This document shows positions 2,868 to 58,630 of a DNA stretch of 63,049 bases, piece after piece. The position numbers and the translations under genes are program-made. The DNA is from a virus. Its lineage: Duplodnaviria > Caudoviricetes. Each line of letters begins with the position of its first letter. The first letter of the stretch is position 1. The notes beneath the pieces are model-generated. The model did not search any database. It saw nothing but the letters and a program-made list of their open reading frames with translations, and had not been told where the DNA came from. The stretch spans positions 1 to 63,049 of IMG/VR virus record IMGVR_UViG_3300027782_000082; one strand, written 5' to 3'.

Positions 2868-3982
2868 GACTTTACGAACTTATTAACGAAACTGCTATTA
2901 GACTTTCTGGCTCTTCAGATAAGGCAAAGGCATGGATAAAGAAAGTCTATGACTTGTACCCGCAGACTTGGCAGAACAATCACGTGATGCCACTGGGAGG
3001 TTCTGGCGATGACCAACAGTTTGCTATGTTTGAACTGGAGCCTAGTTTTTCCAAACGCGGTGCAGTGGAAGTCAAGTGGTTTCAAGCATACCCATTGCGA
3101 CAAGGTGTTGGTTCACGTGCCATGAAAGAATTGCAACGCATGGCACAAGAAGATGGCATCGCACTGACACTTTATCCTTGGGACAAAGGTCAGGTGAGCC
3201 AAAGCAAACTGACCAAGTTCTACAAAGGCCATGGGTTCAAACCTACCACCAAGGGTGCCAAGAACATGGCATGGAATCCAGTTGAAGAGGGGCGCGAAGA
3301 AGCATTACACTTTGCAACTCAAGCACATGCCGGTCAAACTCGGGCAGGCGGCGCACCTTATATTTCTCATCCTGTACGTGTTGCTCAGCATGTTGAACAA
3401 TGGAAGAAGTCTCATAATATAGAAGCATTGATCAGTGCGGCTTACCTACATGACACCCTAGAAGATACAGATACCACGCATGAAGCCTTGCACGACTTGT
3501 TTGGCGGATTGGTTGCATCACTAGTGCAAGAACTAACAAGCGATCCAGAAGAAATTAAAAAAGTAGGTAAGGCTGCGTACCTGGCGCATAAGATGGCTGC
3601 AATGAGCAGTTATGCTCTTGTTATCAAACTTGCTGACAGATTAGATAATGTCAAAGACATTACCACTGCTAAAACACCAGAATGGCGTACAAAGTACAAA
3701 GCAGAAACAGAACATATATTAGATTACATTGAAAAGAATCGTGCGCTGAGTGGTACACATCAAAAGCTAATTGAATTGATACGTAATAAGCTACAAGAAC
3801 TTCAGACCGTAGATGAAAACTTTGATGATGGGAAAAATCCTGGACGCAAAGGACTGAGCCAGCGTGTGGGCATACCCAAGAACGCAACTGTTTCACAGCT
3901 AGAGAAACATGCTAAAGCCCCGGGCGAAGAAGGAAGAATGGCTCGCTGGCAACTAAATATGCGAAGAGGACGCAACAAATGA
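2864..3982 (+). CDS. Multidomain protein: GNAT acetyltransferase + RelA/SpoT-type HD (p)ppGpp-hydrolase-like domain + basic C-terminal module
   Basis: GNAT: LRQGVGS acetyl-CoA loop and KFYKGHGF. HD: HAGQTR..G.PYISHP, AAYLHDTLEDT, IKLADRLDN. Confidence 0.85.
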   Translation: MRLYELINETAIRLSGSSDKAKAWIKKVYDLYPQTWQNNHVMPLGGSGDDQQFAMFELEPSFSKRGAVEVKWFQAYPLRQGVGSRAMKELQRMAQEDGIALTLYPWDKGQVSQSKLTKFYKGHGFKPTTKGAKNMAWNPVEEGREEALHFATQAHAGQTRAGGAPYISHPVRVAQHVEQWKKSHNIEALISAAYLHDTLEDTDTTHEALHDLFGGLVASLVQELTSDPEEIKKVGKAAYLAHKMAAMSSYALVIKLADRLDNVKDITTAKTPEWRTKYKAETEHILDYIEKNRALSGTHQKLIELIRNKLQELQTVDENFDDGKNPGRKGLSQRVGIPKNATVSQLEKHAKAPGEEGRMARWQLNMRRGRNK

Positions 3983-5355
3983 AAATCCATGACATTATAA
4001 CCGAAGCAAAGCAAGACAAGAAGCCCAAGCTACCTGCTGGTGCCAAAAAGATGAACGGCTTGACTGTGATTCCACTGGATGCATTTGTTGATCAACCTAT
4101 AAAAGAAGGCGGAGATGGCGAAACTCCAAAAAGCAGAGGCATTGCTGATGGTTACTATGGTCGTCCGCCAAACCCACACAAGTATGCAAAAGACAGCACA
4201 GGTAAAAATGTTCGCGTCAAACTAACTGATCCTGCTGAAATTGCCGAATACATGGCAGGTTATAAAGATGATTCGTTTGGTTCCAAGGCCTATGAAGGTG
4301 TCAACGAAGCACCTGGTGATTTTGGCCTAGGTGCTAGCACACGTACTGCTAGTGATGATGAGATGCAGGCTTATGCAAAGCGCATCAAGGACAAAGAGAA
4401 GAACAAGCTAGACCCATACAACATGCCTTATGTGCATGGTTCCAACATACAGATCAAAGACGAAGGCGGCAAGGACTACAACTTGGATGCTCTTCGCAAT
4501 GCTATCACAGAACGTCCTACAAAGATCCTCAAGCAAAATGAAAAGATGCAACACAGTGATGGATCCAGCAGTATCTTCTTCAACGTAGGATTGCCTGCTC
4601 TTAAAGGACTCGCTGTAAATGAACAAACAGGTGAATTTGTTATTGTTGACACTTGCCCTGGTGCTGGTGCTTGCAAAACTTTCTGTTATGCAATGAAAGG
4701 TTCTTACGTGATGTTCAAGGCAGTGAGCATGAACCAAACACGCATGCTGAACTTCTTGCTCAACGACCCCGAAGGCTTTGCCGACGAAATGAGCAGTGAA
4801 CTACGTTCTGCTCAACGCAAGTTTGCCAAAGACGGTACCAAGGTAATTGTGCGCTGGCACGATGCTGGTGACTTCTTCAGCCCAGAATATCTTGCACTGG
4901 CATACAGCATCGCTCGCAAGTTCCCTACTGTAGATTTCTACGCTTATACCAAACTGGCCGATGTTGCCAGCGGAGACAAGCCAGCCAACTTCAAAATGAA
5001 CTTCTCCGGTGGTGCCAAAGGCAGCGAAGAAAAACAGATCAACTTCCAAAAGGTCAAGCACAGTCGTGTGGTGCCGAAGGACATGTTCTTTGATCTTATT
5101 TCTCGCAAGGGCAACAACCTGATCAAGGATGCAAAAGGCCGCATGCAATTTGCCAGCCAAGAGAACCTGGACACTTTCAAACAGCGCCTGGCCCAACAGT
5201 ACAAGATTGATAGAAACAGCATCATCACGTATGACCAGATGATGGCTACCAAAGACAGCGGCAAGCCAACTTGGAACGTGATTGTTATGCCTGGCGATGG
5301 TGATGACTCTGCTAACCGCAACGACGTGTTGGGTAGCTATCTCTTGTTCCATTGA
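3979..5355 (+). CDS. Gp88-like Cys-motif (radical-SAM-like) protein with N-terminal extensions
   Basis: TCPGAGACKTFCYA (CX5CX3C), VRWHDAGDFF and FYAYTK; ATGA-coupled. Confidence 0.65.
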   Translation: MKIHDIITEAKQDKKPKLPAGAKKMNGLTVIPLDAFVDQPIKEGGDGETPKSRGIADGYYGRPPNPHKYAKDSTGKNVRVKLTDPAEIAEYMAGYKDDSFGSKAYEGVNEAPGDFGLGASTRTASDDEMQAYAKRIKDKEKNKLDPYNMPYVHGSNIQIKDEGGKDYNLDALRNAITERPTKILKQNEKMQHSDGSSSIFFNVGLPALKGLAVNEQTGEFVIVDTCPGAGACKTFCYAMKGSYVMFKAVSMNQTRMLNFLLNDPEGFADEMSSELRSAQRKFAKDGTKVIVRWHDAGDFFSPEYLALAYSIARKFPTVDFYAYTKLADVASGDKPANFKMNFSGGAKGSEEKQINFQKVKHSRVVPKDMFFDLISRKGNNLIKDAKGRMQFASQENLDTFKQRLAQQYKIDRNSIITYDQMMATKDSGKPTWNVIVMPGDGDDSANRNDVLGSYLLFH

Positions 5356-5356
5356 T

Positions 5357-5434
5357 ATGAATCCAGACCAATACCCTGTATACCCAGAGGATGATGGCAG
5401 TGACCGTCCGAGAAATCCTTACAGCCCTGTATGA
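5357..5434 (+). CDS. Micro-ORF, 25 aa (MNPDQYPVYPEDDGSDRPRNPYSPV)
   Basis: ATG lies 1 nt after the upstream stop; its TGA overlaps ATG 5431. Confidence 0.45.
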   Translation: MNPDQYPVYPEDDGSDRPRNPYSPV

Positions 5435-5510
5435 AGGACTGGCACGATTTGGCCTGGGCCAAGTGGGAATACCATGGCCAGAGGAAACAGACAAATCCAA
5501 ACACCCTTAG
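5391..5510 (+). CDS. Micro-ORF, 39 aa (MMAVTVREILTALYEGLARFGLGQVGIPWPEETDKSKHP)
   Basis: GAGG immediately upstream; amphipathic-looking N-terminal half. Confidence 0.35.
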   Translation: MMAVTVREILTALYEGLARFGLGQVGIPWPEETDKSKHP

Positions 5511-5526
5511 GACCCGTTATTCGTAA
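5431..5526 (+). CDS. Micro-ORF, 31 aa (MKDWHDLAWAKWEYHGQRKQTNPNTLRTRYS)
   Basis: ATGA coupling with the 25-aa ORF. Confidence 0.3.
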   Translation: MKDWHDLAWAKWEYHGQRKQTNPNTLRTRYS

Positions 5527-5592
5527 CGGCGGTGTGGGCGGCCACTGCTCGCATGCAACAGGAGTCGTGCCCTTTAGCATGCAAAGTGTGGC
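5505..5592 (+). ncRNA. Candidate small structured RNA with a possible pseudoknot; 5' part complementary to 23S rRNA H69-H70
   Basis: ccgtta-TTCG-taacgg hairpin; gtgggcgg/ctgctcgc stem with G-U pairs only on the + strand; gcatgc/gcatgc stem enclosing agg/cct; loop gccac complementary to gtggc 5588-5592. Confidence 0.5.
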
Positions 5593-5624
5593 ATTTTTAC
5601 AACACATTGCGTAAATAGCCCGAA

Positions 5625-5694
5625 AGCTAAGTCATTGATTTTGCTAGGGTTTTTATCGTACCCTAGCTAAGTTGTTGATTTTGCTAGGGTTTTT
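5625..5694. repeat. Two 30-bp direct repeats at 40-bp spacing with an embedded inverted repeat
   Basis: agctaagtcattgattttgctagggttttt (5625-5654) and agctaagttgttgattttgctagggttttt (5665-5694); gctagggt/accctagc inverted repeat at 5643-5667. Confidence 0.9.
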
Positions 5695-5721
5695 TTCTGG
5701 GTTTTTCCTGGAAAAAAGTGG

Positions 5722-5750
5722 TTGACGCCCAACCCAGTTCAGTGCATAAT
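5722..5750 (+). promoter_or_regulatory. Sigma70-type early promoter
   Basis: TTGACG-N17-CATAAT preceded by GTGG. Confidence 0.75.
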
Positions 5751-5756
5751 ACGAGT

Positions 5757-5924
5757 ATGATGAAACAGAAGCTCACCATAACAGTCAACGCACCGCGCAA
5801 GCGCACCCGCGCCCATGCTGTGCTCTTTTTGGACTCACGCTATAAACAGCGCACGGTTAAGTCCGAGCGTCTTTATGACCGTAAGCGCCAAAAAGAGGTT
5901 GACCGTAAAGCGAGTCTGCTGTAA
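5757..5924 (+). CDS. Small basic protein, ArfA (alternative ribosome-rescue factor A)-like
   Basis: AVLFLDSRYKQRTVKSERLYDRKRQK resembles the ArfA core (ALLHDPLFRQRVEK...SYMRKGKH) but lacks KGKGS. Start moved to the ATG 6 nt after the -10 box. Confidence 0.45.
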   Translation: MMKQKLTITVNAPRKRTRAHAVLFLDSRYKQRTVKSERLYDRKRQKEVDRKASLL

Positions 5925-30721: not shown

Positions 30722-33700
30722 TTACGCTGGAACAAAATAGCCGCGTCCTTCTTTCAAGAAAACTGCTTCTCGGGTGGTGCTGTTCAACAATGTTAGCGTT
30801 TCTTCGTTCCATTGCGGATACAGCGCATTTTGCCAGTTTTTCAGCTCACTAGGTGTAGGAACTTGGTTTTGCTGTCCACCATCGTACACCCTACGACCAA
30901 CAGTTTGAGGTAGTACAGGTGTTCCTAGTGTACCACGTACCAGTCGCTTGATTGTGTTTCCGTCAATTTCCCAGAACTCAACACGCTCACGAGCGAGCCA
31001 TACTACTCCTGGCTTGCCGTTTACTGGATCTGGTCGGGTCAATACCGATGCATCATCTAGCTGTATTTCAGTGGCAGTTTCATTTGCTGTTGCTGTGACT
31101 GTAGTAGATGCCGCGTTGTTGTATCTGTAAACTGTTGTTCCGCCCAGGATATCCATATGATATCTCCAGGCCACTGTGCTGTTATTTACAATCCTGCCGC
31201 TGGCATTGTTTATCACACGTATTTCCACGCTTTCGCCTGGGCTCAACGCTACCATTTCTTCTGGCCAACGATCCCATTCAGGCTGATAGAAAGCATTACC
31301 ATCTACGATTGCCTGTAGTGCTTCCGGCTGTACACCAAAGCTATGCCCTGCAATGATTGTGTCAATCAATGCTTCGTAGCCTGGCTGTTCCATATCCCAC
31401 AGATAGTTTTTCATGCGAGACACACGCTCGCCAGTTGCTGGTAGTAATCCTTCTGCTGTGAAGTCAAAATCCCAAGGATTACGATCCCACCCTTCCTGCA
31501 AATGCCCAAACGGATGTCCGTCAATGTAGTAGCCTTGCCATGTTTGATCACCATGGCGGCCATAACGCATGACAATTTTACCAGTGTGTGAATCTTCAAA
31601 CGACACTTCAACATTGTCTTTGATCTGATCTACTTCGGTTTGATTCAATATCTTTGTATGGTATGGCTTGACTTCATTGATGAAGTCTGTCAGAACATTG
31701 TCGTCGTTACGCAAATACTCCTTGCGGAAATATGCCGTTGCTGCCAGTGGTTCAGTGCTGACTCGCTCAACGTCAACATAGCTGGACTTTCTGATCCAAT
31801 GACAAGATGGATTCTGGCGCAGTACTTCTTTTGCCAATGCAAAGAAAACAACATTGTAATGCACTTGAGCTGAATCAACAAACACATCTTCTCTAAGAGC
31901 TGTTATGATTTCAAACAGCTCTACAAAAGGATAGGCATCCCAGCGTAGACTATCCCATGGACTCGCATCCCATAAATCCTGCGCCTTGGCCAGATCAAAT
32001 AATTTCTTGCTCAAGTGTATAGTGCCGTTTTCCTGGAATACCAGCTTCCAGCCATCTACTGATTTTTCCCAGACATTTTTAAGTTGTTGTTCGCCTAGCA
32101 ATACTTCTACATAGTCCCCGACTTTTGCTGTGCTATAATTGTATAACTCGGTTCCTGTAGTCAATACTGCTACTGGAATCTTGTTGCTATCAAAACTAGA
32201 ATCTGCGTAGTCAACATAATCCCAGTAGGTAGAAATATCATATGAGAAAGACGGGTCGTTGGTTGCAATGACTCTGCTCAGTCTGTTGTTCCATCCAACA
32301 ATGGATGTTACATTTACTTTGGCTAATTCTCTATTGGCAACATTTACAAATATACGAATAGCTTCAATACGATCATTTAACCAGCTTTGCTGTGTTGGTC
32401 GTATTTCGTTGCCATAACGATTGTACTTGTGCCTGCTGTAATCAGGAACACTCTTTCCTTGTATCTCTGAAATCTTGTCTGCTTCAACTAAGCGGAAATC
32501 CCAGAGACGCTGCCATGGTTGTGAAGCAAACGCAACAAAACTACCATCTTCAAATGCCACATCAGATGCCAGGAAGTCTCTAAATGCACGATAGTAATTT
32601 CCGTCGTATCTTACAACTGCACCACGGCCATAGTTGGTTCCAATTTGATAATTGCTCACGTCATAGATAGTTTCTGACTGATCTTCGCCAATGATACTGT
32701 CTCGCATGCGGATATGCAACCAATCAGACACTGTGGATGTGATGTCATTTTCTTTCATCAACAACCACTGGTCATGTGAGTCACTATTGCCATCAGTTTC
32801 GATTCGTAGCACAGCACCTTTTTTACCCAGTAACTTGCCTACACCGCTCAACAATATGGCATTTTTCTGCAATCCAGCAAACCACATCGCACCGCTCACA
32901 CGTGGATTGCCAACAACCGATGCAATCTGTGTCACATTGAATTTGTTTGATGTCAGCGGAATGCCCGCAGTTGCACGGGTGTAAACCTGTGCCGATGAAA
33001 TGCTTGTGGATTTTTGTGCTACTGATTGGATATTGGTTCTTGTTGAATATGTGCGATCCATACCCGATACCCAGAAATAGTAGAACGTGCGTAGCACACC
33101 CTTCTTGTCTTTTTCTTCACGCTCGCACCAGAAGTATTTGTTTTCTCCGTTGACTGTTTTATGATAAGGTGTACCAGTAACTGATTCAAAGTCAACCAAG
33201 AATCCAGTACGTGCTGACTCAACCCATTGTGCAGGAGGGATGACGCTTTTTACCCATTCATATATTTGTACTGTGCTACCTGGGAACTGTTTGCCCCACT
33301 GGAATGCTTTTTCTCTAGTCCTGCCTTGATAATAATCATAGTAACGTACAGCACTCAGATCCCACCACACTTCGCCCTGATGTTCGTCAAACCATGCAAA
33401 TCGAGGACGTACACTATACCCTTCCTGATCCTCTAGGTCTGCATTGGTATAGCTGGCAGGGTCATCATGTTCTTTCCAGTTTATAAATGTGTCTACGTAT
33501 GCTGGTAATACCCCAGCTGCTGGATCATATGGATTTAGTGTTGCCAGCACAGTATTTGTTTCGTAGTCAACGATTTCAACATTGGTAATACGACTGTGGT
33601 CAACAATGTCGCCTAGTGCTCGATCAAATATAAACGGAATGTGATTGAATGTGCCAGCACGTTTACCAAATGAGTTCACAGTATCCAGCAATGCTATCGC

Positions 33701-36700
33701 ATCTGAATCGCGCTTGAGCCTGGATGCATATCCCATTGCTACCATCATTAGTTCTCTCGACGAGAATGGCTTTATGCCTATCATGTGGTATTCAACTAAT
33801 GGATTTCCGTCGGCATCTTCAGTATCATTTTGCAATGCAAACATACCTGTACCGTTGTAATCCAATAGCACATTCCTGTTGGCATAGATTTTTCCTCTAA
33901 AGAACCAGGAGTCTTGTGCAAACAAATACTGATAATCAGTATACGACCAGATTTTCTTTGCAATCTTAGCAAGGTCTAATGTAGTAGCCGAACCGTTGGT
34001 TGTTGAATCAACTTCAGCAACAAATGCAATGCACTCGTCGGCAAACATGGTATTGATTGCTGCCGCGGCCAGTGTGCCGCTGGTGTAAATTTTTTCTGCT
34101 AATACCCATGCACAGTCATTGAACTGACGGAATATGATTCCGTTCAATGCTTCTGCTACAGTAATTGATGGAAGGTCTGTTGGCAATACTGTTGGCCCAG
34201 TCACATTCAATGCTGCCAAGCTGACTGGACAGGTGTCCGTCAATGCAAGGGTGCCAGCATCCAGTTTCATGAATGTGGCAAGCAATATACCGATTGCAAA
34301 CAACCATGGCATATTTTCTTCGCCACTTGCTTGCCACTGATGTAGCACATTGTCAGCATTAAAATCGTAGAATACCAAGCCTCTGTTGTCAGATGGAATA
34401 TCATTGTTTGTGAATAAAGAATAATTTCCCTTATAGGTATACGCACTGGGCTCGTTAACACGATCATCAATATAAGCCATCTGACCATTGGCCCATTCGT
34501 AGCCTGGATCCAATATACTGGCATTCATTTCGTCTACTGTGTAGAAATGAGTGTGTTTGACTACAAAAAGTTTTCCGTCTGCAGATGTGTTTCCAGGTGG
34601 AAATTCTGGAACAACAAAGTCTAGAGGATTATATTTCAACTCAATGAAGAATGATTCTGTATCTCTGATGGTGGTTACTTTGTAGTATCCGTTGACATCT
34701 TTCTTCTCTGTGCTTAGTATCAGTACCCAGTCTCCAACTGACAAGTTATGCTTGACGCCTGGAAGCATTTCACATAATGGATGATAAGGATCGTCAAACG
34801 TGCCAGCGCATAGTTCTTTGATACCAAGATTCTTATCCATGGTTTGTAGCACAGTCCAGTCTTTAACATCATTGGACTCTGGTGTTTTGTTTGCTAACCA
34901 AATGCTTGGCAAATACAGTTCTTCAATGGCCAGCCAATCAGCCGGATCAAATGTTGTTTTGGCCAAGTGTGAGTAATTTGCTTTGTACAGCTGACCTTTA
35001 TATCTCACACGATCTCCTTCATCGTATGGCAACTTTGTTGACCAGCTTTCAATAGCAGACATTTCTCCAAGTATGTCATCAGCAATGTCAATTTCATACA
35101 GCTGATCCACATCCATGAACTTGTAATCAGTTTCTATGCGATCTGGAATACCAGCTTGCGGCAAGTCTGTTTCTCTAACTGATTTTGATCGTATAGGCAA
35201 CTCAAAGTCACGTGGGTATTTTACCCAACGGCTGTCGTTTGGTCCCAGCAGGTCAATGATGTTATCTGCTGCCTTATCAACGTATGTTTCGTAATAGGTG
35301 TTTTCCCTAAATGGCGGTATCACACGCACAGTTATCAGATCCAGTAGTGTCTCTCTAGTGTCTGCGGGGATTTGAATTTCCCATGTGGACTTTTCGCCAG
35401 TAGTGCCAAAATCTCCCATACGGAACATCCAATTTTCTCGTACGGTGATACCTGGGGGTACAGACAGTGAGGATGATGACAAGTCGCCTAAAATTCCTTT
35501 AGTAAATTTGTCGATGATATTTGGTGTACCTTTTCGTCGCAGGCTTCCTGCTTGGAATTGGTCAATGGTATCTTTACTGAACCCAGCTGCCAGCAATGCA
35601 TCTTCTGGACGCGATAGTCCCAACTGACTTTTCTTTAGATTGCGTATCCAAGGATTAGAACTACGGTTTTCAACAGTGATATAGTCATCACCAATTTCTC
35701 TTGATATAGTGTCAAGATTTGACCCAATACCAGATTCGCCTATCAAGTAACCATGTCCTTCTGGACGACCATTCCAGTTGGTTGTGCGTTTGCCTTGCGC
35801 ACGTAGTCTAGGAATGATCAATCCAAACAAGTAATCATTGATCTGATCATTGAAAATAGTAGTGTCATTGAAAACAACAGCATGGGTATATTCTTCAAGG
35901 CCGCAACGCACAAAGTATATGCCAATGCCTGGGCGGCTCTTGATAGTGGTTTCTTCGTCTTCTCTTACCACTTCAGTGTCTTTGAAATCAATTCGTCGGC
36001 TATTTTCATCCAGCAAATAAGTTCTGCTCAAGAACGTGGTGTCAAGACGACCAAAGAATCGTGTGGAATGTGACAACACAAGATTTTGTGCTGCCGGGCT
36101 TAGTGCAATTTGAGTATTTGCCTGCCAGCGTGTCTGACTCCAGGTTGCAAACTCCCGTGCGCTATAACTCCAATCAAGGATGTCATCCTGTGTTGGCGCA
36201 GTATCCTCAAACTTCCAGCCTTGAGACTCAAGGTAATGTCCATAACCCAACAAGAAGTTGATCACTTCCTGCCTTGTCATCAGCACAGTACCATAGTCAA
36301 GATATGATATCACAGTCTCAAAGGTTGTGTACTTTTTATATGTGATACTTCCTACTTCAACTGGTATGCTTGGGCCGCTGGCCTTTACTGCATAGTAAGG
36401 AAAATAAGTTGATATGTTATCAAAACCCTGGATCCTATATCCGCCTGCATCATCTACGATCACCTTGACACCGCTGTAGGTTAGCACAACGCTGGGGCTG
36501 GTATTTTTCAAGCTGATCGCATAATCTTCTTGTGGAATACGATTGCCTTTTTCTTGTTCAATTAAAATATCTGCCACGAAGTCCAAGCTGGTCGCATCAA
36601 GGAATCCATTGGCAGTCCATTGCAACCTACTCTTGACATTACGGATCTCACTGATAATACTTTGCAAAACGTCCGCGCTTAGACTGGATGCTAATTCACT

Positions 36701-39700
36701 GATCAGCATGCCAAATCCTGGTACAATGTCTGCGCTTGTTTCTCTATGTTGATTTGCTGTGGCCCATGCTACTATCTTTTGATTGGTTCTATCAACATTG
36801 AGTGTGTTATCAAGTATGCCTGGAACAAGCCTAGGGCCTTCCCATACTGATTCCAAATACTCTGGGCCACCAGATAGCAATAGCCAATTTGCATAAGAGA
36901 ACGCAAACTCACTGCTTCTACGCCATGCAAGTTCCTGTGTGCCGATGTTGCCAAATGTCCAATCATCGATTGTTGCATCACTAGTAGTAATAGTGGTCTC
37001 GTCATACCAACCAGCCGCAACTGGATTGCGTAGCGTTCCGTCGGTATCTACTGGCAAGAAAGGTGCATCAGGTCCTGTCAGATATTCTATATCATGCTTG
37101 ATAGAACTGTTTGTATCAACATCTGGAAATGGCGTGTTGCTCCTATTGCCAATGGTCAATGCCGCAATCAATCTGACTCGTTTAACAGGATCAGTCCAGC
37201 TGTACATCGAATCCCAGTTGCTTGGCTTGCGAGCAAACCCCAGCATTTCCCAAGGATGTGTGTCTGGTCGGTCCGTGCCATACACATGTCGATATATGTC
37301 TCTCCAGCTGCCATAACGATTTCCATCAACAGCATCAAATACAGAATAGTTATATGTCAGTGGGCGGCCAATTATATGACCAAGGTTTGGTGTTTCCACA
37401 ATCTTGTGCTCGTTTGACCATGTTAGCCAAGCATCTTCAAGATAAGAGTTCAGTTCTGCTCTGTTATACCAAGTCTGACGCATCTTTCGAGGCTGGTGCT
37501 TGGCCAATAATATCTCTGCACGTTCGCCACGTGCTTTACCAATGCTACTGGCAACACGACGCTCAAATTCCAGCAACATGTCATCGCGGAAGTCACCCCA
37601 GGCTGGTGTCAAACTGCCATCGTGTCCTTGGATGAATAACACGTCTGGCCCTTGATATGTGGTATCAGTGTAGTACTCAGGATGATACCATGGTGTGATG
37701 CCCATCTTGGCAGGTGTTGGCGGTACATAACTCACACGTGTTTTCTTGAATACACAGATCTTGAACTGGCACGGAGTGTCAAACTCTGCAGAAATATGCA
37801 CAGTCTTTGCGGTCTGGTCAATGTCGTAATCTTTTGTGTATGTTAGTATGCGCCAGGCTGTGTCATTGTAATTCTTATAGTAAACGTACACATGATCTGT
37901 TGATATTTCGCCAAGCTCTGCTGTACTTGGTATCTCGCACTCATAATCCACAAAAGAAGCAGCCAGGCCGCCATTTAATATGATAATTGGTGGAGTAGGG
38001 TCGGCGTCTTCACCGTCAACAATATCAACCACTGTTGGATCTGTATCGTCACCATCAATCTCCAACTGCGCCGTGGAATCAGCAAAGGTGTAGATTTTTT
38101 CAGCGTCAGGTGTACCCCACATGACCATGTGGCTGTGTGCATATCTAAATGATTCGTTTCGTCCCACAAATATGTCTGACAATGCTTTGTCAACGGATGC
38201 CTGTACATTTGAAATATCTTGGTCCAGGTATAGTCTTTCAATTTTTTGTATGAACTTCAATTTGAAATTAGCATAGGCTTTTCTGGCATCTTCCAGCAAG
38301 GGAAATGCTGAACCTGTTTCGCCCGAGCGCATCATCCAGAAGTATCTATTGGCAGGGGAGTCATGCAATAGTATGTTGTTGCCCGGCGATGTTCTGGTTT
38401 CTGTAAACATCCAGTCGTTATCACCAAATGAATTGTTGTACCCTTCGGCTTCGGCAAATCTAGGATATTGCGAATTTGCATGGTAGGTATCTACAACAAA
38501 TCGCGGAATCAATGTCTTGGCGATTGACGAACGGAAATGTTCAAAGAACTGGCCGTAAGATCCTTTCGATACTATTTCATTGTATGGATTTTTAGACAAG
38601 TTTGAAATGTCAACATTGCGATTAACTGATGTCAGCATGCTGCCGTTAGTAACCACGTCAACAATATCTCCGGATGCAAGCCCAAGTACTTTTATGCCTA
38701 GCACAGGTGTGGTGTATGCATCTACACCGCCTTCATATGCTATTCTCCACTGGCTGGGGTCTTGTTCTTTGCCATTTACCAGCACACGTGGATGTCGGAT
38801 GTCATCACGACGCCTACCAACCACGCGAGCTATGTTATATCTTCCTTCTCCAATTCGCCATTTGATTATGTAATCTCCTGGGCGGCAGTCTTGTGGATCA
38901 TAAGATACTTTTTCATCAAACAAACTGGCAGGTAGTGGCACTTCAACATCAGTGGTATCAATGAACACAACTCCGCGCTGGTTTGCCACACGCAATCTAC
39001 GTCCTGTATAGTTAAAGATTTTACCATTTTTTATCTTTGAAACGATGATGTCATCATACCACTCTTGCGCCGGACGATCTGAATACACTTCTTCCACTAG
39101 GTAATCTTTGTAACCATCTGTGCTCAATGTCATTGGCATGGCGATGTTCCAGGTGTATGTTGGATCAAATACCCATTGTTCGCCGATCAATGACAAAGTG
39201 CCAGAGCTATCAATTATGTCATCTGTGACTGTGACCGAGTACTCTTTCTTGACAGAAAAACACTCGCTGATGGGTTCCCATCCAGCATTGTACTTCCAAA
39301 TTGGATCAATTACTTTGTCAATGTTCCATTCTCTAAAGTAACTGAAAGAACTGATATCTCTAAGAGCATTGACCGGTACGCCTTCACTTCTTTTGTAGAT
39401 CTCAGCAATGTAGTTGGTAAAAGATATTGCACCAATGTTGTTGGCCAGACTATTCTTGTAACTGCTATCATATGCAATCGACAGATTTAATTCTCGGTCG
39501 TATGTGGTTCCTTTGGTATAGCCAAATATTTGGCTACCGCTGAATGCCGCAACATCATACTGTTCAATCGGGGTTCCGTTACCATCAAACAATCTAAACA
39601 GTGGTGCTTGTCCCCTGACTTCTAGTTGCTGGGCTTTTACCCAAGATGTACCGTTATACCAATATGTCAGACCAAAATTTGGTCCATCTAATACCAATAC

Positions 39701-40963
39701 AGATGCACCTGTTACAGGCGCCGCGTCACTGGCAGGTATGAACTCAACTCCAAAGTCAACTCCGGTAGCAATGAATGTTTTATTCTTGATCGCTGGGTCG
39801 CCGCCAAGGAATATCACTCTTGCATTTTCTGGTACAGGTACTCCGTCAATTACCGGGTTCACTATGCCATTGAGGCCGTTCAATGAGCTAACACTATCAG
39901 TTAACAATGTCACATGCTTCTTGCCAAGGTGGCCGTGATTCCACATGTCTATGTCAGAATAAAACTCAACGATTGGCCTTGCGGCACGATCGTTGATGTT
40001 CAATACATCACCATCAGCGATGTCCAAGAACCTGGCTACTTCAAACGCAGTTTGCTCATGTATCCAGCGATTCGTACGACTCCATACATTGTAGTTGGCG
40101 CTACCCATTGCAATGGTAACATATTGCTTTCCGCCTGGTGTTAACACATCTGTGTCCCAGCGATTCCTGTCCCAATTCTTGTTGTCCCATGGTAGTGGCG
40201 CAAGTATGGAAATCAAGCTCAACGGATTTGCATATAGCTCAAATGGCAGTAGCTTGATACTTGATCCAACCCCAGACACGATATAATACTTTGGATCCGT
40301 GCTGTCGGATGGAATAGTTAGATACTCAGTTGACTCTTCCCATATTCCTAGATCTCTCTGTACGAAATATATTTTCATACCATTGCGCAATGTCAGCTTG
40401 CGGCCATTGGCTTGAGTGTTTGTGACATAGTAGGCTTTGCCTACTATATCTGTGCCGATGTTGACTATGTCCAGTTCGCCATCATCGTTGCGCCCTGCTT
40501 CTAGTGCAATGGTTGGTAGATCAAACGGAAGCCAATAATAGTTCTGGAAATTTACAAACTTGTCTGGATCAATCTTGGGGGAAAAACCATAGGTTTTTCC
40601 AGTGAGCTGTTTTGCATCCTTGAGAGGAATATTTTCTCTGACGGTGAGTTCTTCTCTGATGTCAACTATGTCACCTACCACTTCGCCAGCTGTAATTCCC
40701 ATCTCATAACGATTGCCGTTAGTTAGGTATATATCTGAGGCTCGTCGTAGTTTGCCATTAGCACTACCAATGTATCCATCAAACGATTCCAGCGTGCCTT
40801 TGCTGGTCAGGTCTCCCAACAAAGCATTGATATACTTTTTGTTACGAGTTGTCCTGTGTACACCTGGCAGTAGACCAGATACGTTTACAGTCGCTGGCGG
40901 CACCTTACTACTACCTGGATAGGTTTGATAAGACGTTGTTATCTTTTTATTTTTGCTAGCCAT
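30722..40963 (-). CDS. Giant (3413 aa) baseplate wedge-type structural protein
   Basis: Follows the gp6-like gene; FINEVKPYHTK; WD..PWD repeats; two CBM5/12-like W/Y....Y..G..V.Y.G..Y.A modules. Confidence 0.8.
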   Translation of the reverse strand: MASKNKKITTSYQTYPGSSKVPPATVNVSGLLPGVHRTTRNKKYINALLGDLTSKGTLESFDGYIGSANGKLRRASDIYLTNGNRYEMGITAGEVVGDIVDIREELTVRENIPLKDAKQLTGKTYGFSPKIDPDKFVNFQNYYWLPFDLPTIALEAGRNDDGELDIVNIGTDIVGKAYYVTNTQANGRKLTLRNGMKIYFVQRDLGIWEESTEYLTIPSDSTDPKYYIVSGVGSSIKLLPFELYANPLSLISILAPLPWDNKNWDRNRWDTDVLTPGGKQYVTIAMGSANYNVWSRTNRWIHEQTAFEVARFLDIADGDVLNINDRAARPIVEFYSDIDMWNHGHLGKKHVTLLTDSVSSLNGLNGIVNPVIDGVPVPENARVIFLGGDPAIKNKTFIATGVDFGVEFIPASDAAPVTGASVLVLDGPNFGLTYWYNGTSWVKAQQLEVRGQAPLFRLFDGNGTPIEQYDVAAFSGSQIFGYTKGTTYDRELNLSIAYDSSYKNSLANNIGAISFTNYIAEIYKRSEGVPVNALRDISSFSYFREWNIDKVIDPIWKYNAGWEPISECFSVKKEYSVTVTDDIIDSSGTLSLIGEQWVFDPTYTWNIAMPMTLSTDGYKDYLVEEVYSDRPAQEWYDDIIVSKIKNGKIFNYTGRRLRVANQRGVVFIDTTDVEVPLPASLFDEKVSYDPQDCRPGDYIIKWRIGEGRYNIARVVGRRRDDIRHPRVLVNGKEQDPSQWRIAYEGGVDAYTTPVLGIKVLGLASGDIVDVVTNGSMLTSVNRNVDISNLSKNPYNEIVSKGSYGQFFEHFRSSIAKTLIPRFVVDTYHANSQYPRFAEAEGYNNSFGDNDWMFTETRTSPGNNILLHDSPANRYFWMMRSGETGSAFPLLEDARKAYANFKLKFIQKIERLYLDQDISNVQASVDKALSDIFVGRNESFRYAHSHMVMWGTPDAEKIYTFADSTAQLEIDGDDTDPTVVDIVDGEDADPTPPIIILNGGLAASFVDYECEIPSTAELGEISTDHVYVYYKNYNDTAWRILTYTKDYDIDQTAKTVHISAEFDTPCQFKICVFKKTRVSYVPPTPAKMGITPWYHPEYYTDTTYQGPDVLFIQGHDGSLTPAWGDFRDDMLLEFERRVASSIGKARGERAEILLAKHQPRKMRQTWYNRAELNSYLEDAWLTWSNEHKIVETPNLGHIIGRPLTYNYSVFDAVDGNRYGSWRDIYRHVYGTDRPDTHPWEMLGFARKPSNWDSMYSWTDPVKRVRLIAALTIGNRSNTPFPDVDTNSSIKHDIEYLTGPDAPFLPVDTDGTLRNPVAAGWYDETTITTSDATIDDWTFGNIGTQELAWRRSSEFAFSYANWLLLSGGPEYLESVWEGPRLVPGILDNTLNVDRTNQKIVAWATANQHRETSADIVPGFGMLISELASSLSADVLQSIISEIRNVKSRLQWTANGFLDATSLDFVADILIEQEKGNRIPQEDYAISLKNTSPSVVLTYSGVKVIVDDAGGYRIQGFDNISTYFPYYAVKASGPSIPVEVGSITYKKYTTFETVISYLDYGTVLMTRQEVINFLLGYGHYLESQGWKFEDTAPTQDDILDWSYSAREFATWSQTRWQANTQIALSPAAQNLVLSHSTRFFGRLDTTFLSRTYLLDENSRRIDFKDTEVVREDEETTIKSRPGIGIYFVRCGLEEYTHAVVFNDTTIFNDQINDYLFGLIIPRLRAQGKRTTNWNGRPEGHGYLIGESGIGSNLDTISREIGDDYITVENRSSNPWIRNLKKSQLGLSRPEDALLAAGFSKDTIDQFQAGSLRRKGTPNIIDKFTKGILGDLSSSSLSVPPGITVRENWMFRMGDFGTTGEKSTWEIQIPADTRETLLDLITVRVIPPFRENTYYETYVDKAADNIIDLLGPNDSRWVKYPRDFELPIRSKSVRETDLPQAGIPDRIETDYKFMDVDQLYEIDIADDILGEMSAIESWSTKLPYDEGDRVRYKGQLYKANYSHLAKTTFDPADWLAIEELYLPSIWLANKTPESNDVKDWTVLQTMDKNLGIKELCAGTFDDPYHPLCEMLPGVKHNLSVGDWVLILSTEKKDVNGYYKVTTIRDTESFFIELKYNPLDFVVPEFPPGNTSADGKLFVVKHTHFYTVDEMNASILDPGYEWANGQMAYIDDRVNEPSAYTYKGNYSLFTNNDIPSDNRGLVFYDFNADNVLHQWQASGEENMPWLFAIGILLATFMKLDAGTLALTDTCPVSLAALNVTGPTVLPTDLPSITVAEALNGIIFRQFNDCAWVLAEKIYTSGTLAAAAINTMFADECIAFVAEVDSTTNGSATTLDLAKIAKKIWSYTDYQYLFAQDSWFFRGKIYANRNVLLDYNGTGMFALQNDTEDADGNPLVEYHMIGIKPFSSRELMMVAMGYASRLKRDSDAIALLDTVNSFGKRAGTFNHIPFIFDRALGDIVDHSRITNVEIVDYETNTVLATLNPYDPAAGVLPAYVDTFINWKEHDDPASYTNADLEDQEGYSVRPRFAWFDEHQGEVWWDLSAVRYYDYYQGRTREKAFQWGKQFPGSTVQIYEWVKSVIPPAQWVESARTGFLVDFESVTGTPYHKTVNGENKYFWCEREEKDKKGVLRTFYYFWVSGMDRTYSTRTNIQSVAQKSTSISSAQVYTRATAGIPLTSNKFNVTQIASVVGNPRVSGAMWFAGLQKNAILLSGVGKLLGKKGAVLRIETDGNSDSHDQWLLMKENDITSTVSDWLHIRMRDSIIGEDQSETIYDVSNYQIGTNYGRGAVVRYDGNYYRAFRDFLASDVAFEDGSFVAFASQPWQRLWDFRLVEADKISEIQGKSVPDYSRHKYNRYGNEIRPTQQSWLNDRIEAIRIFVNVANRELAKVNVTSIVGWNNRLSRVIATNDPSFSYDISTYWDYVDYADSSFDSNKIPVAVLTTGTELYNYSTAKVGDYVEVLLGEQQLKNVWEKSVDGWKLVFQENGTIHLSKKLFDLAKAQDLWDASPWDSLRWDAYPFVELFEIITALREDVFVDSAQVHYNVVFFALAKEVLRQNPSCHWIRKSSYVDVERVSTEPLAATAYFRKEYLRNDDNVLTDFINEVKPYHTKILNQTEVDQIKDNVEVSFEDSHTGKIVMRYGRHGDQTWQGYYIDGHPFGHLQEGWDRNPWDFDFTAEGLLPATGERVSRMKNYLWDMEQPGYEALIDTIIAGHSFGVQPEALQAIVDGNAFYQPEWDRWPEEMVALSPGESVEIRVINNASGRIVNNSTVAWRYHMDILGGTTVYRYNNAASTTVTATANETATEIQLDDASVLTRPDPVNGKPGVVWLARERVEFWEIDGNTIKRLVRGTLGTPVLPQTVGRRVYDGGQQNQVPTPSELKNWQNALYPQWNEETLTLLNSTTREAVFLKEGRGYFVPA

Positions 40964-58077: not shown

Positions 58078-58630
58078 CCCCACAGGCTCATCTCTACCGA
58101 TAGGCTGCGCAACGGCCGCATAACTAGTTGCCCTAGACCTGGACACACGTATCGCAGGGACGGAAATTGTGCGCGGTAGCACAGACTCAGCACCACTATC
58201 CTTTACAGGACGTAAGTCAAACGGTATGAAACTGGCTTGGTGTGAGAATAGCAAAACCGAAATGAGCAAGCTCTATTGACAATTATAACTTGCGTGATCC
58301 CAGGACGATTCTATCGGGTGTCTTGGGTTAGTCAGCGTCATTAAAAGAAGATAGACGTAAAAAGGTACAGCATGACCGCCTTTGCCCTCTGGGTTGTTTC
58401 TGATAGATGTGGTATGGTACTCTGGAGAAAGTCCTTAGTCCAGCTTTTCACTTTGCCCTTAACAGGGCGAAGTGTGGCTGGAACCTCAGAGAAAATATCA
58501 TCTTGTTTCACTAGTAAACAAAATAACTTAGAATCTAAAAAGTAAAAATGATTCATGAACATATCACGAGCGATAGCGATGTGAATGTGAAATGAAGGCT
58601 GCGACAGCAGCCAGGTGTTAGAGGATACTT
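58078..58630 (+). ncRNA. Candidate large structured non-coding RNA (boundaries approximate)
   Basis: About 580-nt gap between convergent genes containing at least ten stems, with G-U pairs favouring the + strand. Confidence 0.6.

What the first reader, a model, noticed from the sequence alone, without database searches (positions are those of the whole stretch)
5505..5592. Small structured RNA whose 5' arm is complementary to 23S rRNA helix 69/70
Seen: + strand 5505-5530 reads CCTTAGGACC-C-GTTAT-TCGTA-ACGGC. Known: the conserved bacterial 23S H69-H70 segment (I-CeuI site) is GCCGTAACTATAACGGTCCTAAGG, whose reverse complement is CCTTAGGACC-GTTAT-AGTT-ACGGC. That gives 10 exact nt, a 1-nt bulge, 5 more, an internal loop, then 5 more. 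The downstream loop AGTCGTGC could also pair with GCACGA, about 35 nt further along 23S. The element folds on the + strand (UUCG hairpin, G-U-rich stem, gccac/gtggc pseudoknot). Inference: a phage antisense or guide RNA aimed at the ribosomal intersubunit bridge B2a (or an H69 decoy if transcribed from the minus strand). The match is short and partly palindromic, so chance is not excluded.
Basis: partly seen in the sequence, partly recalled or inferred. Interest (0 to 1): 0.75.

Follow-up and report, generated by a model that had tools for sequence, protein, structure and literature searches.

The report
Phage RNA complementary to 23S rRNA
A small folded RNA found in hundreds of uncultured lake-water phages keeps exposed loops that exactly complement a universally conserved stretch of bacterial large-subunit ribosomal RNA, which suggests that these phages use an RNA to grip or disable host ribosomes.

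Summary
Window 5505-5530 reads as described, and 5505-5514 is a perfect complement of E. coli 23S rRNA 1921-1930.

The site is one member of a large RNA family that Rfam does not hold. I collected more than 200 distinct copies from IMG/VR phage contigs. Five of five jumbo-phage records have one strong copy each.

Covariation supports the fold on the + strand: P1, hairpin P1a, P2, variable P3 and a pseudoknot. On 96 distinct sequences 95.5% of cells pair against 74.1% in shuffles, and 23 of 26 pairs change on both sides.

The unpaired junction CUUAGGAC stays conserved when copies are found by other parts of the RNA. The commonest P3 loop, UUCGCUAC, complements the adjoining 23S 1930-1937. Together the two loops read 1922-1937 without a gap. 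A second, unrelated scaffold keeps both loops.

Taken alone, the window's 10-mer is only marginal (5 of 150 shuffles do as well). Its own P3 loop is no better than shuffled sequence.

Best reading, at about 0.5: an antisense RNA aimed at the H69-H70-H71 region of host 23S rRNA. Neither binding nor any effect on the ribosome has been tested.

The parts
5495..5598 (+). Whole RNA element: A-rich lead-in, P1, junction J, P1a, P2, P3, pseudoknot strand and U-run
   Evidence: The covariance model R1 matches 5495-5594 (41.3 bits, E 3e-9). It is the only significant match in the 63-kb window. TTTTT follows at 5594-5598.
5501..5505 (+). P1, 5' strand ACACC. It pairs with 5531-5535.
   Evidence: In alignment A3 all 5 P1 pairs change on both sides, and 94.3% of cells pair.
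5505..5514 (+). Junction J. CCTTAGGACC is the exact complement of 23S rRNA 1921-1930. The unpaired part is 5506-5513, CTTAGGAC.
   Evidence: The match is unique in E. coli 16S+23S+5S. J is conserved in copies found through P2 and the pseudoknot alone: 65 of 101 carry CCTTAGGACC, and 89 of 101 match antisense 23S for 10 nt or more.
5514..5529 (+). P1a hairpin CCGTTA-TTCG-TAACGG. Its sequence resembles the antisense of H69.
   Evidence: 4 of 5 pairs change on both sides. The hairpin is variable, or absent, in other members. GTTAT can pair with 23S 1916-1920.
5531..5535 (+). P1, 3' strand GGTGT
   Evidence: helix 1.
5536..5550 (+). P2 hairpin GGGC-GGCCACT-GCTC
   Evidence: 4 of 4 pairs change on both sides, and 99.0% of cells pair.
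5541..5545 (+). Pseudoknot, 5' strand GCCAC, inside the P2 loop
   Evidence: It pairs with 5588-5592. The helix was not part of the model, yet 96.5% of cells pair and 4 of 6 pairs change on both sides. Quite different partner sequences occur in L341, L270 and L233.
5551..5582 (+). P3 hairpin GCATGC...GCATGC, with inner stem GG/CC and apical loop AGTCGTG at 5563-5569 (loop type A)
   Evidence: The outer and inner stems covary, 6 of 6 pairs. The loop has a 6-nt complement at 23S 1964-1969, which is not significant alone.
5588..5592 (+). Pseudoknot, 3' strand GTGGC, preceded by AAAGT
   Evidence: helix 4. AAA is invariant in alignment A1.
5594..5598 (+). U-run directly after the pseudoknot strand
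   Evidence: A run of 4 or more T within 14 nt occurs in 51 of 117 family members, a run of 3 T in 17, and none in 49.

Best explanation
Window 5495-5598 (+) encodes one member of a large, uncatalogued family of structured phage RNAs about 85-110 nt long.

Fold: stem P1 encloses an unpaired 8-nt junction (CUUAGGAC) and a small hairpin, P1a. A GC-rich hairpin, P2, follows. Its 7-nt loop pairs with the 3' end to form an H-type pseudoknot. Between them lies a variable hairpin, P3, and a U-run often follows.

Position: the RNA usually sits directly behind the stop codon of an unrelated same-strand gene, like an sRNA borne on a 3' UTR. There is about one copy per genome.

Proposed mechanism (inferred): the RNA acts as an antisense RNA against host 23S rRNA.
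- The junction, with its flanks, pairs with 1919-1933. This covers the 3' strand of H69 and the 5' side of H70.
- The apical loop of P3 pairs next to it. In the majority type this is 1930-1937, in the loop of H70, so 1922-1937 is read without a gap.
- Rarer loop types have shorter or single-case complements at 1938-1943, 1964-1969 and 1966-1976.
- H69 and H70 are folded in the mature 70S ribosome. The likely targets are therefore nascent or unassembled 23S rRNA, or free 50S subunits, where loop 70 is single-stranded and exposed.
- The expected result is blocked 50S maturation or blocked subunit joining.

Shown here: the family, the fold, covariation, conservation of the loops, the complementarity, and invariance of the target. 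Inferred: binding, the form of the target, and the consequence.
For: 1. Family and fold.
- 21 contigs share the exact 25-mer.
- At least 120 stretches match a P2/pseudoknot pattern, and at least 120 match a P1+J 16-mer.
- In alignment A3 (96 distinct sequences) 95.5% of cells pair against 74.1% in shuffles. 23 of 26 pairs change on both sides. The covariation score is 0.464 against 0.129, reached by 0 of 500 shuffles. Sliding the partners gives at most 0.074.

2. The junction is conserved when ascertainment ignores it. Among 101 distinct copies found through P2 and the pseudoknot only, the longest exact match to antisense 23S 1906-1937 is 10 nt or more in 89. The mode is 12 and the maximum 15.

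3. A second loop matches next door.
- UUCGCUACC is a unique 9-nt complement of 23S 1929-1937.
- UCGCUAC is present in 88 of 101 copies found through the P1+J 16-mer alone.
- The unpaired parts CUUAGGAC and UUCGCUAC tile 1922-1937 exactly (alignment A2 columns).
- Two 8-mers tiling a 16-mer in 4.6 kb of rRNA has a chance of about 1e-6 per pair of loops.

4. A prediction of the tiling model held. The extra CUAC, which extends J into 1930-1933, occurs in 29 of 50 non-B members but in 12 of 65 type-B members (Fisher p 1.4e-5). The sequences are related, so this p is optimistic.

5. Mismatch variants of J keep 10 nt or more of contiguous match by extending on the other side. CUACCUUAGGA matches 1923-1933, and UAGGACCGUU matches 1918-1927.

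6. A different scaffold, found in 18 loci behind a ribonucleotide reductase-like gene, keeps CUUUAGGR, P1a and a hairpin with loop AUUCGCUAC.

7. A lone loop variant in L091 has an 11-nt complement of 23S 1966-1976.

8. The target is invariant. It is identical in E. coli and in 83 of 83 listed matches from the 65 genomes with a match, among 151 Bacteroidota genomes searched.

9. Plausibility.
- Loop 70 is described as single-stranded and is cut by MazF-mt6 in 50S but not in 70S (review PMC5408214, passages read).
- Synthetic antisense oligomers to 23S rRNA arrest 50S assembly in vitro (PMC12274283, abstract and passages read).
- A local fold of 23S 1899-1991 leaves 1931-1940 in a loop and about 1962-1970 unpaired; 1971-1974 pairs in a weak downstream stem.

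10. Strand. G-U pairs fit the + strand only. A same-strand ORF of 80 aa or more ends at most 30 nt before, or at, the invariant UAG in 77 of 109 loci.
Against: - No binding data exist. No RNA ends are known.
- Contigs from RNA libraries only show that a relative's upstream gene end and element are contiguous in two studies, and such libraries can hold DNA.
- Energy tests are weak. The whole 5' domain against rRNA gives a mean z of -0.9. The unpaired 8-mer is matched by 21 of 150 shuffles and loop B by 23 of 150.
- A 100-nt RNA has roughly a one-in-three chance of some 10-nt complement in 4.6 kb of rRNA (my estimate).
- Loop types A and C, including the window's own type A, have their best rRNA complements elsewhere: 16S 1315-1329 and 16S 1379-1386.
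- 12 of 65 type-B members also carry the CUAC extension. In these, the two loops would compete for 1930-1933.
- H69 and the H70 stem would have to open for J to pair. A phage also needs working ribosomes.
- Family members are related, so the counts are not independent events.
Confidence: 0.5

Rival explanations
1. The RNA is a structured 3'-end element whose loops are read by a protein or serve another RNA function, such as a 3' stabiliser or terminator, a ribozyme, or a ligand sensor. Its likeness to antisense 23S rRNA is a by-product of chance or of descent from a captured antisense rDNA fragment.
For: - It lies at the ends of transcription units. A U-run follows in 51 of 117 members, and sigma-70-like promoters often follow (in the window TTGACG-17-CATAAT at 5722-5750).
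- Single-loop energy tests are not significant.
- Loop types A and C lack a convincing 23S site.
- J plus P1a resembles a contiguous antisense copy of H69 and its flank.
Against: - There is about one copy per 260-354 kb genome, so it is not a generic terminator.
- Two separate loops tile a contiguous 16 nt of rRNA.
- A second scaffold keeps both loops.
- The complement extends and compensates in the direction the rRNA predicts.
- Descent from a contiguous antisense fragment does not explain why loop B lies about 50 nt downstream of J, in another hairpin.
- No Rfam ribozyme or riboswitch model matches.
Confidence: 0.24
2. The element acts in cis on the ribosome that terminates at the adjacent stop codon. 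For example, it captures the 50S subunit freed at recycling, when the H69-H71 face is exposed, or it modulates termination or recycling.
For: - The stop codon of a same-strand ORF of 80 aa or more ends 9-19 nt before the end of the invariant UAG in 60 of 109 loci, and is that UAG in 13.
- The region matched is part of the subunit interface and is said to interact with ribosome recycling factor (review PMC5408214).
Against: - In the window the nearest upstream stop, of the 25-aa micro-ORF at 5432-5434, lies about 65 nt before P1.
- The upstream genes are unrelated to one another.
- Close packing behind a stop codon is also usual for sRNAs made from 3' UTRs (recalled).
- A terminating ribosome would cover and unfold P1 and J.
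Confidence: 0.1
3. The RNA is a guide for a protein enzyme. Like a snoRNA, it positions a phage or host enzyme to modify or cut 23S rRNA near the junction of the two duplexes (1929/1930) or in loop 70.
For: - It has bipartite antisense elements abutting at one phosphate.
- It has a conserved, rigid pseudoknot scaffold that could be a protein handle.
- Bipartite antisense guides exist in eukaryotes, for example SNORD13 (PMC9670809, search listing and abstract only).
Against: - No gene is consistently linked to it. The neighbours differ from locus to locus, and only 2 of 80 loci holding relatives of the window's upstream gene have the RNA.
- There are no C/D or H/ACA features and no Rfam match.
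Confidence: 0.1
4. The functional strand is the minus strand, giving an RNA that mimics H69/H70 as a decoy.
For: The minus-strand minimum-free-energy fold of 5505-5592 has z -2.15, against -0.07 for the + strand.
Against: - G-U pairs would become C-A on the other strand. One pseudoknot pair is G-U in 76 of 96 sequences, and P2 and P3 also hold G-U pairs.
- The element has the orientation of the upstream ORF in 77 of 109 loci. Only 3 loci instead have an opposite-strand ORF.
Confidence: 0.02
5. The region encodes a small protein: the 46-aa ORF 5474-5614, or the 39-aa ORF 5391-5510.
For: ORFs of 31-62 aa overlap the site on both strands.
Against: - The invariant 25-mer holds stop codons in two of its three frames, TAG and TAA, read directly.
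- Homologues differ by indels and by compensatory base-pair changes, not by codon-like changes.
Confidence: 0.01

Closest known systems
Base-pairing bacterial and phage sRNAs, especially those carried in 3' UTRs (for example CpxQ, DapZ; recalled, not looked up)
   Same: A short structured RNA directly behind a stop codon, with conserved unpaired seed regions, a stable 3' structure and often a U-run. It is presumed to act by Watson-Crick pairing.
   Different: The conserved complement is to rRNA, not to an mRNA. There are two seeds on separate loops that read one contiguous target. The 3' structure is a pseudoknot rather than a plain terminator hairpin. No chaperone or transcript data exist.
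Eukaryotic and archaeal snoRNAs that pair with pre-rRNA (U3, U8, C/D and H/ACA guides; SNORD13, PMC9670809, listing and abstract seen)
   Same: A small RNA with one or two antisense elements against a conserved rRNA segment. The bipartite arrangement resembles SNORD13.
   Different: It has no C/D or H/ACA boxes and no Rfam match. It is encoded by phages of bacteria, where no rRNA guide RNAs are known (recalled). No partner protein has been identified.
Kissing-loop antisense RNAs of plasmids (CopA/CopT, RNA I/RNA II; recalled)
   Same: Recognition loops are displayed on hairpins. The loops begin with YUNR-like sequences (CUUA, UUCG, read from the sequence; the motif name is recalled). A two-step route of loop contact followed by extension is plausible.
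   Different: The target is a host rRNA in trans, not a cis-encoded complementary transcript.
Synthetic antisense oligomers or PNAs against 23S rRNA (PMC12274283, abstract and passages read)
   Same: Antisense pairing with 23S rRNA during co-transcriptional assembly arrests 50S assembly in vitro. This is the outcome proposed here.
   Different: Those oligomers are man-made and were aimed mainly at domains I and II. This RNA is natural, structured and aimed at domain IV. I did not see whether that study targeted H69-H71: a text search for H69, H68 and H71 found nothing, and its supplement was not read.
MazF-mt6 and MazF-mt3 toxins, which cut helix/loop 70 of 23S rRNA (review PMC5408214, passages read)
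   Same: They aim at the same small rRNA region (UUCCU at 1939-1943), which is accessible in 50S but not in 70S. Hitting it blocks 70S formation.
   Different: They are protein endonucleases of bacteria, not a phage RNA, and they act by cleavage rather than pairing.
T-box leader RNAs (recalled)
   Same: A structured RNA that reads another conserved, structured RNA through two separate short pairings.
   Different: T-box RNAs sit in 5' leaders, read tRNA and control the downstream gene. This RNA lies at 3' ends, and its complement is rRNA.

Membership tests
Any Rfam 15 family, including self-cleaving ribozymes, riboswitches, snoRNAs and Y RNA | A score at or above the family's gathering threshold with its covariance model | tested here: not met
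   The gathering-threshold scan of the whole window finds only Polynucleobacter-1 at 58104-58244. The permissive scan of 5300-5800 gives nothing above 19 bits on the element (WLE3, gathering score 50, E 0.14).
tRNA / tmRNA | A cloverleaf or tRNA-like domain detected by ARAGORN | tested here: not met
   0 genes in the window.
Intrinsic (Rho-independent) terminator | A GC-rich hairpin immediately followed by a U-run | tested here: inconclusive
   In the window TTTTT follows the pseudoknot strand, but the consensus scan calls no + strand terminator there. Across the family a run of 4 or more T follows in 51 of 117 members, a run of 3 T in 17, and none in 49. About one copy per jumbo genome argues against a generic terminator.
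Trans-acting base-pairing sRNA | A conserved, unpaired seed region | tested here: met
   J lies between P1 and P1a. It is the most conserved block in alignments A1 and A2, and it is conserved when ascertainment ignores it.
Trans-acting base-pairing sRNA | A conserved complementary target in the host | tested here: met
   23S 1921-1937 is identical in E. coli and in 83 of 83 listed matches from 65 of 151 Bacteroidota genomes. The host of this phage is unknown.
Trans-acting base-pairing sRNA | A discrete, stable transcript with defined ends | not testable with these tools
   Only contigs of RNA libraries were on hand. Contigs from two studies span 5300-5609 of a relative, and contigs cannot show RNA ends.
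Trans-acting base-pairing sRNA | Demonstrated pairing with, and effect on, the target | not testable with these tools
   This needs binding or genetic experiments.
C/D or H/ACA guide RNA | Box C/D or H/ACA motifs flanking the antisense element | tested here: not met
   No snoRNA model scores near threshold. The best is snoR144, 15.3 bits against 100, and it lies off the element. I saw no such boxes on reading alignments A1 and A2.
Small protein-coding gene | An open frame conserved across homologues | tested here: not met
   TAG and TAA close two of the three frames inside the invariant 25-mer. Variation is by indels and compensatory pairs.

The most novel reading that the evidence does not exclude
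Phages encode a natural anti-ribosome RNA. A pseudoknot-braced scaffold presents two loops that clamp the H69-H70-H71 face of 23S rRNA. First the P3 loop kisses the exposed loop 70 or the 1962-1976 linker, and then the junction invades the base of H69/H70. The RNA thereby acts on free 50S subunits or nascent 23S rRNA as an RNA anti-association or anti-assembly factor. Alternatively, it shields loop 70 from host toxins that cut there. This would be the first natural RNA of bacteria or phages known to work by base-pairing with rRNA.
Probability: 0.4. Interest if true: 0.95.

Novelty: categorically new. Interest (0 to 1): 0.86.

Why it matters
If the pairing is real, phages control or exploit the ribosome with an RNA that reads rRNA directly. 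I found no such mechanism described for bacteria or their viruses in five full-text searches. This is a limited search of an open-access library.

The target is among the most conserved sequences in biology. It lies at the subunit interface, where toxins and synthetic antisense oligomers are already known to disable ribosomes. A natural, evolved binder would show:
- which form of the 50S is vulnerable,
- how a short structured RNA can invade folded rRNA,
- a possible route to antisense antibacterial scaffolds or tools for trapping assembly intermediates.

Even if the rRNA reading fails, this is a large new class of pseudoknotted phage RNA with about one copy per jumbo-phage genome. It has clear covariation and an invariant loop that needs an explanation.

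Tried and rejected
**Tried, with no useful result**
- Rfam found nothing on the element. ARAGORN found no tRNA or tmRNA.
- Cultured-phage records (INPHARED) hold no copy. This covers the 405-nt region, the window element, a type-B member and the class-2 element. The single hit proved to be AT-rich flank, not the element.
- Bacterial and archaeal species genomes gave one hit, on a 14.6-kb contig of a metagenome-assembled genome.
- The window holds no 23S-like target: 0 matches to the 16-mer with up to 3 mismatches.
- Relatives of the upstream GP88-like gene do not generally carry the RNA. Only 2 of 80 loci do.
- The MAG behind L263 gave no 23S match, so it says nothing about a host.

**Considered and rejected, by reading the alignments and from memory of the motifs**
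- HDV-like, hammerhead, hatchet and pistol topologies. The helix order differs, the would-be core GCUGCU/AGUGAGC covaries as a helix, and Rfam is silent.
- A tRNA-like structure with CUUAGGA as an anticodon-like loop. No closing pair exists, and ARAGORN is silent.
- A CsrA site. The GGA is lost in the CCUUAGGGCC variant.
- A Shine-Dalgarno-like site. No start codon lies at a fixed distance.
- Stop-codon readthrough or a conserved mini-ORF ending in Pro-UAG. The frames are not conserved.
- An external guide sequence for RNase P. The arm order is wrong and there is no 3' RCCA.
- A group I intron guide sequence. There is no intron core.
- J pairing with the P3 loop inside the RNA. Only 3 nt match, and a different 3 nt for each loop type.

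**Weak or negative tests**
- Whole-domain duplex energies are hardly better than shuffles.
- Single loops against all rRNA are mostly not significant.
- Other long complements may be chance among thousands of distinct k-mers. These include the P2 hairpin against 16S 517-527 (11 nt), L091 against 23S 648-659 (12 nt), and a P1a variant against 16S 176-186 (11 nt).
- J variants are not explained by variation in the target, which was invariant in the genomes searched.

**RNA-library runs**
- X15 and X16 contigs stop at 5463 and 5452, before the element. This proves nothing.

**Not available**
- No supplementary files of papers were read. The oligomer list of PMC12274283 may bear on whether H69-H71 has already been targeted.
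Full report
**What is at the site.** The window is a complete IMG/VR virus record of 63,049 bases that CheckV rates 18% complete. It carries phage genes: a 5'-3' exonuclease, an HD phosphohydrolase, a GP88-family protein, a MoxR-like ATPase, a VWA protein, ThyX, a DNA ligase and a baseplate-lysozyme protein. The finding lies in a stretch from 5356 to 5717 that holds no long gene. This stretch follows the GP88-like ORF (3979-5355) and a 25-codon micro-ORF (5357-5434). Two 33-nt direct repeats ending in GCTAGGG plus a T-run come after it (5625-5657 and 5665-5697), then a sigma-70-like promoter at 5722-5750.

**The observation.** I fetched the E. coli K-12 rrnH operon rather than trusting memory.
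- CCTTAGGACC (5505-5514) is the exact complement of 23S 1921-1930. It is the only 10-nt complement in 16S+23S+5S.
- GTTAT can continue the pairing to 1916-1920 across one bulged C.

On its own this is weak.
- 5 of 150 shuffled 10-mers find an equally stable site somewhere in the rRNAs.
- The unpaired 8-mer is matched by 21 of 150 shuffles.
- The window's P3 loop is worse than most shuffles (134 of 150 do as well), and its best site is in 16S.
- The + strand fold of 5505-5592 is not more stable than shuffles (z -0.07). The minus strand gives z -2.15.
- Rfam and ARAGORN are silent.

**A large family.**
- The exact 25-mer occurs in 21 IMG/VR contigs with unrelated flanks.
- A pattern built only from the P2 hairpin and the 3' strand found at least 120 stretches.
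- A 16-mer of P1 plus junction found at least 120.
- I used 117 distinct copies from the first scans and 100 from the last.
- No copy is in 50,697 cultured-phage records.
- One copy is on a short contig of a metagenome-assembled genome, among 185,579 species genomes.
- Many host contigs are large, up to 354 kb.
- A covariance model built on 49 copies finds one strong hit in each of five records of 260-354 kb. Two of these records also have a weak, partial second hit.
- The model finds exactly one significant hit in the window, at 5495-5594 (41.3 bits).
- DNA runs labelled freshwater or lake-water metagenome from four studies, besides the possible source, hold half or more of the stretch.

**Fold.** On 96 distinct sequences aligned to the model:
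- 95.5% of cells form standard pairs, against 74.1% in column shuffles.
- 23 of 26 pairs change on both sides.
- The covariation score is 0.464 against 0.129, reached by 0 of 500 shuffles. Sliding the partners gives at most 0.074.

The alignment is fitted to the nested helices, which favours them. The pseudoknot was not in the model and still pairs in 96.5% of cells, with 4 of 6 pairs changing on both sides. Wholly different partner sequences occur in L233, L270 and L341. One pseudoknot pair is G-U in 76 of 96 sequences, so the + strand is the RNA strand.

The architecture is an A-rich lead-in; P1; the unpaired junction J; hairpin P1a, which is variable and sometimes absent; P1'; P2; P3; AAA; the pseudoknot strand; and often a U-run. 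A run of 4 or more T follows in 51 of 117 members, 3 T in 17, and none in 49.

**Conservation of the anti-23S bases.** The first 21 copies are invariant there by construction, so I used copies found through other parts of the RNA. Among 101 distinct copies found through P2 and the pseudoknot only:
- The 10-mer is CCTTAGGACC in 65, CCTTAGGGCC in 10, CCTTAGGAAC in 7 and CCCTAGGACC in 6. Three further variants occur once each, and 10 copies did not fit my pattern.
- The longest exact match to the antisense of 23S 1906-1937 is 10 nt or more in 89. The mode is 12 and the maximum 15.

Many members carry CUAC before J (13 nt against 1921-1933) or GU(UAU) after it (up to 1916-1930). The two mismatch variants keep 10-11 contiguous nt by extending on the other side. 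The A-to-G variants give G-U wobbles.

**The second loop.** The P3 apical loop comes in a few types.
- In copies found through P1+J alone, 88 of 101 have UCGCUAC (type B), 9 have GUCGUGC (type A, the window's type), 2 have CCGGGAAU (type C) and 1 has AACGCCAUU (type D). One is not an element.
- Type B, UUCGCUACC, is the unique perfect complement of 23S 1929-1937.
- In the standard architecture the unpaired J (CUUAGGAC) and the unpaired loop (UUCGCUAC) read 1922-1929 and 1930-1937. That is 16 contiguous nucleotides with no gap and no overlap (columns of A2).
- The single type-D copy in L091 has 11 nt against 1966-1976.
- Types A and C have only 6 nt in the neighbourhood (1964-1969, and 1938-1943 with one G-U). 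Their best rRNA complements lie elsewhere, so they do not add support.
- A prediction of the tiling idea held. The CUAC extension, which covers 1930-1933, is frequent where loop B is absent (29 of 50) and rare where it is present (12 of 65). Fisher p is 1.4e-5, or 7e-9 in the subset found through P2 and the pseudoknot. The sequences are related, so these p values overstate independence. The 12 members with both features would have overlapping sites.

**A second scaffold.** Searching only for the P1a hairpin 16-mer gave 43 new loci.
- 23 are unrelated sequence without any other feature of the RNA.
- 2 are ordinary members.
- 18 show another architecture, placed between a ribonucleotide reductase-like gene end and a thioredoxin-like gene start (these names are my reading of the translations). 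It consists of a 5' hairpin, CUUUAGGR, P1a, and a long hairpin with loop AUUCGCUAC followed by a U-run.

Both anti-23S loops are therefore kept on a scaffold without P1, P2 or the pseudoknot.

**Target.** The 25 nt around the site are identical in E. coli and in all 83 listed matches from 65 of 151 Bacteroidota genomes. The other 86 genomes had no match, probably because their assemblies lack rRNA. A local fold of 23S 1899-1991 gives H69, a 4-bp stem with a 10-nt loop (1931-1940), H71, and a linker after it that is unpaired to about 1970. The helix names and bridge assignments are recalled. A review states that helix/loop 70 has a single-stranded area. MazF-mt6 cuts it in 50S but not in 70S ribosomes, and the region matters for subunit association, tRNA and recycling factor (PMC5408214, passages read). 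Synthetic antisense oligomers to 23S rRNA arrest 50S assembly in a co-transcriptional in vitro system (PMC12274283, abstract and passages read).

**Context.**
- In 77 of 109 loci with enough upstream sequence (8 left out, too near a contig end), a same-strand ORF of 80 aa or more stops within 30 nt before the end of the invariant UAG. In 13 of these the stop is that UAG.
- The upstream genes are unrelated to one another.
- Only 2 of 80 loci with relatives of the window's upstream gene have the RNA.
- Promoter-like sequences or a U-run often follow.
- This is the layout of an sRNA borne on a 3' UTR (recalled comparison).
- Contigs from RNA libraries of two studies run from the upstream gene end through a relative's element and 30 nt beyond. 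They show no ends, and such libraries can contain DNA.

**Reading.** The best-supported explanation is an antisense RNA against the H69-H70-H71 region of host 23S rRNA. It probably acts on nascent or unassembled rRNA, or on free 50S subunits. I put this at about 0.5.
- Against it: the weak single-loop statistics, the uninformative loop types A and C (including the window's own), the need to open H69 and H70, and the absence of any experiment.
- Rivals: a protein-read or otherwise functional 3' element whose likeness to antisense rRNA is incidental (0.24); a cis action on the ribosome that terminates next to it (0.1); a guide for an rRNA-modifying or rRNA-cutting enzyme (0.1); a minus-strand decoy (0.02); and a small protein (0.01).

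**Novelty.** Five full-text searches found no description of this RNA, or of any natural phage or bacterial RNA aimed at 23S rRNA.

Noticed in passing
window 58104-58244 (+): A full-length Polynucleobacter-1 RNA motif (RF01718, 87.4 bits against a gathering score of 37) lies in this phage record. It may hint at the host group, or show that the motif is phage-borne.
   Followed up: no
window 5357-5434 (+): A 25-codon micro-ORF, MNPDQYPVYPEDDGSDRPRNPYSPV, lies here. A peptide ...YPVYPEDDGxDxxRNPYSPV* is encoded just upstream of the RNA in 16 of 117 family loci. Its function is unknown. In the window it starts 2 nt after the GP88-like ORF ends.
   Followed up: partly
window 5625-5657 and 5665-5697 (+): Two 33-nt direct repeats (91% alike) each end in GCTAGGG plus a T-run and are spaced 40 nt apart. 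A similar GCTAAGTCATTGATTT...TAGGGTTTTT motif follows the RNA in the close relative L002. They could be terminators or a protein-binding repeat. The terminator scan did not call them.
   Followed up: partly
family P2 hairpin (for example L081:397-411); window 5529-5537: The commonest P2 hairpin, CGGCUGCUGGC, is an 11-nt perfect complement of 16S rRNA 517-527 (the 530 loop). The window's GGCGGTGTG complements 16S 1395-1403. These bases are paired inside the RNA and covary away in other members. About four 11-mers of this kind are expected by chance among the distinct k-mers (my estimate), so I treat this as probably chance.
   Followed up: partly
L220, L225, L228, L243, L245 and 13 more loci (for example L220:3900-4000): A second scaffold carries the same two anti-23S loops. 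It lies between a ribonucleotide reductase-like gene end and a thioredoxin-like gene start and ends in a terminator-like hairpin.
   Followed up: partly
L270, L295, L318, L323, L325 (for example L270:6455-6553): In this subclass the 5' half of the junction (CACCUUAG) is paired with an internal CUAAGGUG. This is a 23S-like sense copy that would mask the seed. P2 and the pseudoknot have wholly different sequences, GCCGUU/AACGGC.
   Followed up: no
L376:1501-1573 (record G002) and L377:1501-1594 (record G003): Two jumbo-phage records have weak second matches. One lacks the junction domain but keeps P2, a UCGCUACC loop and the pseudoknot strand. The other keeps the junction but has a different P3 and no clear pseudoknot.
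   Followed up: partly
window 30722-40963 (-) and 40965-44177 (-): There are very long ORFs of 3413 and 1070 aa. I did not annotate them.
   Followed up: no
window 5282-5434 (+): The frame of the micro-ORF stays open back to 5282 and overlaps the last 74 nt of the GP88-like ORF in another frame. I did not test whether this means a frameshift or is only an open frame.
   Followed up: no
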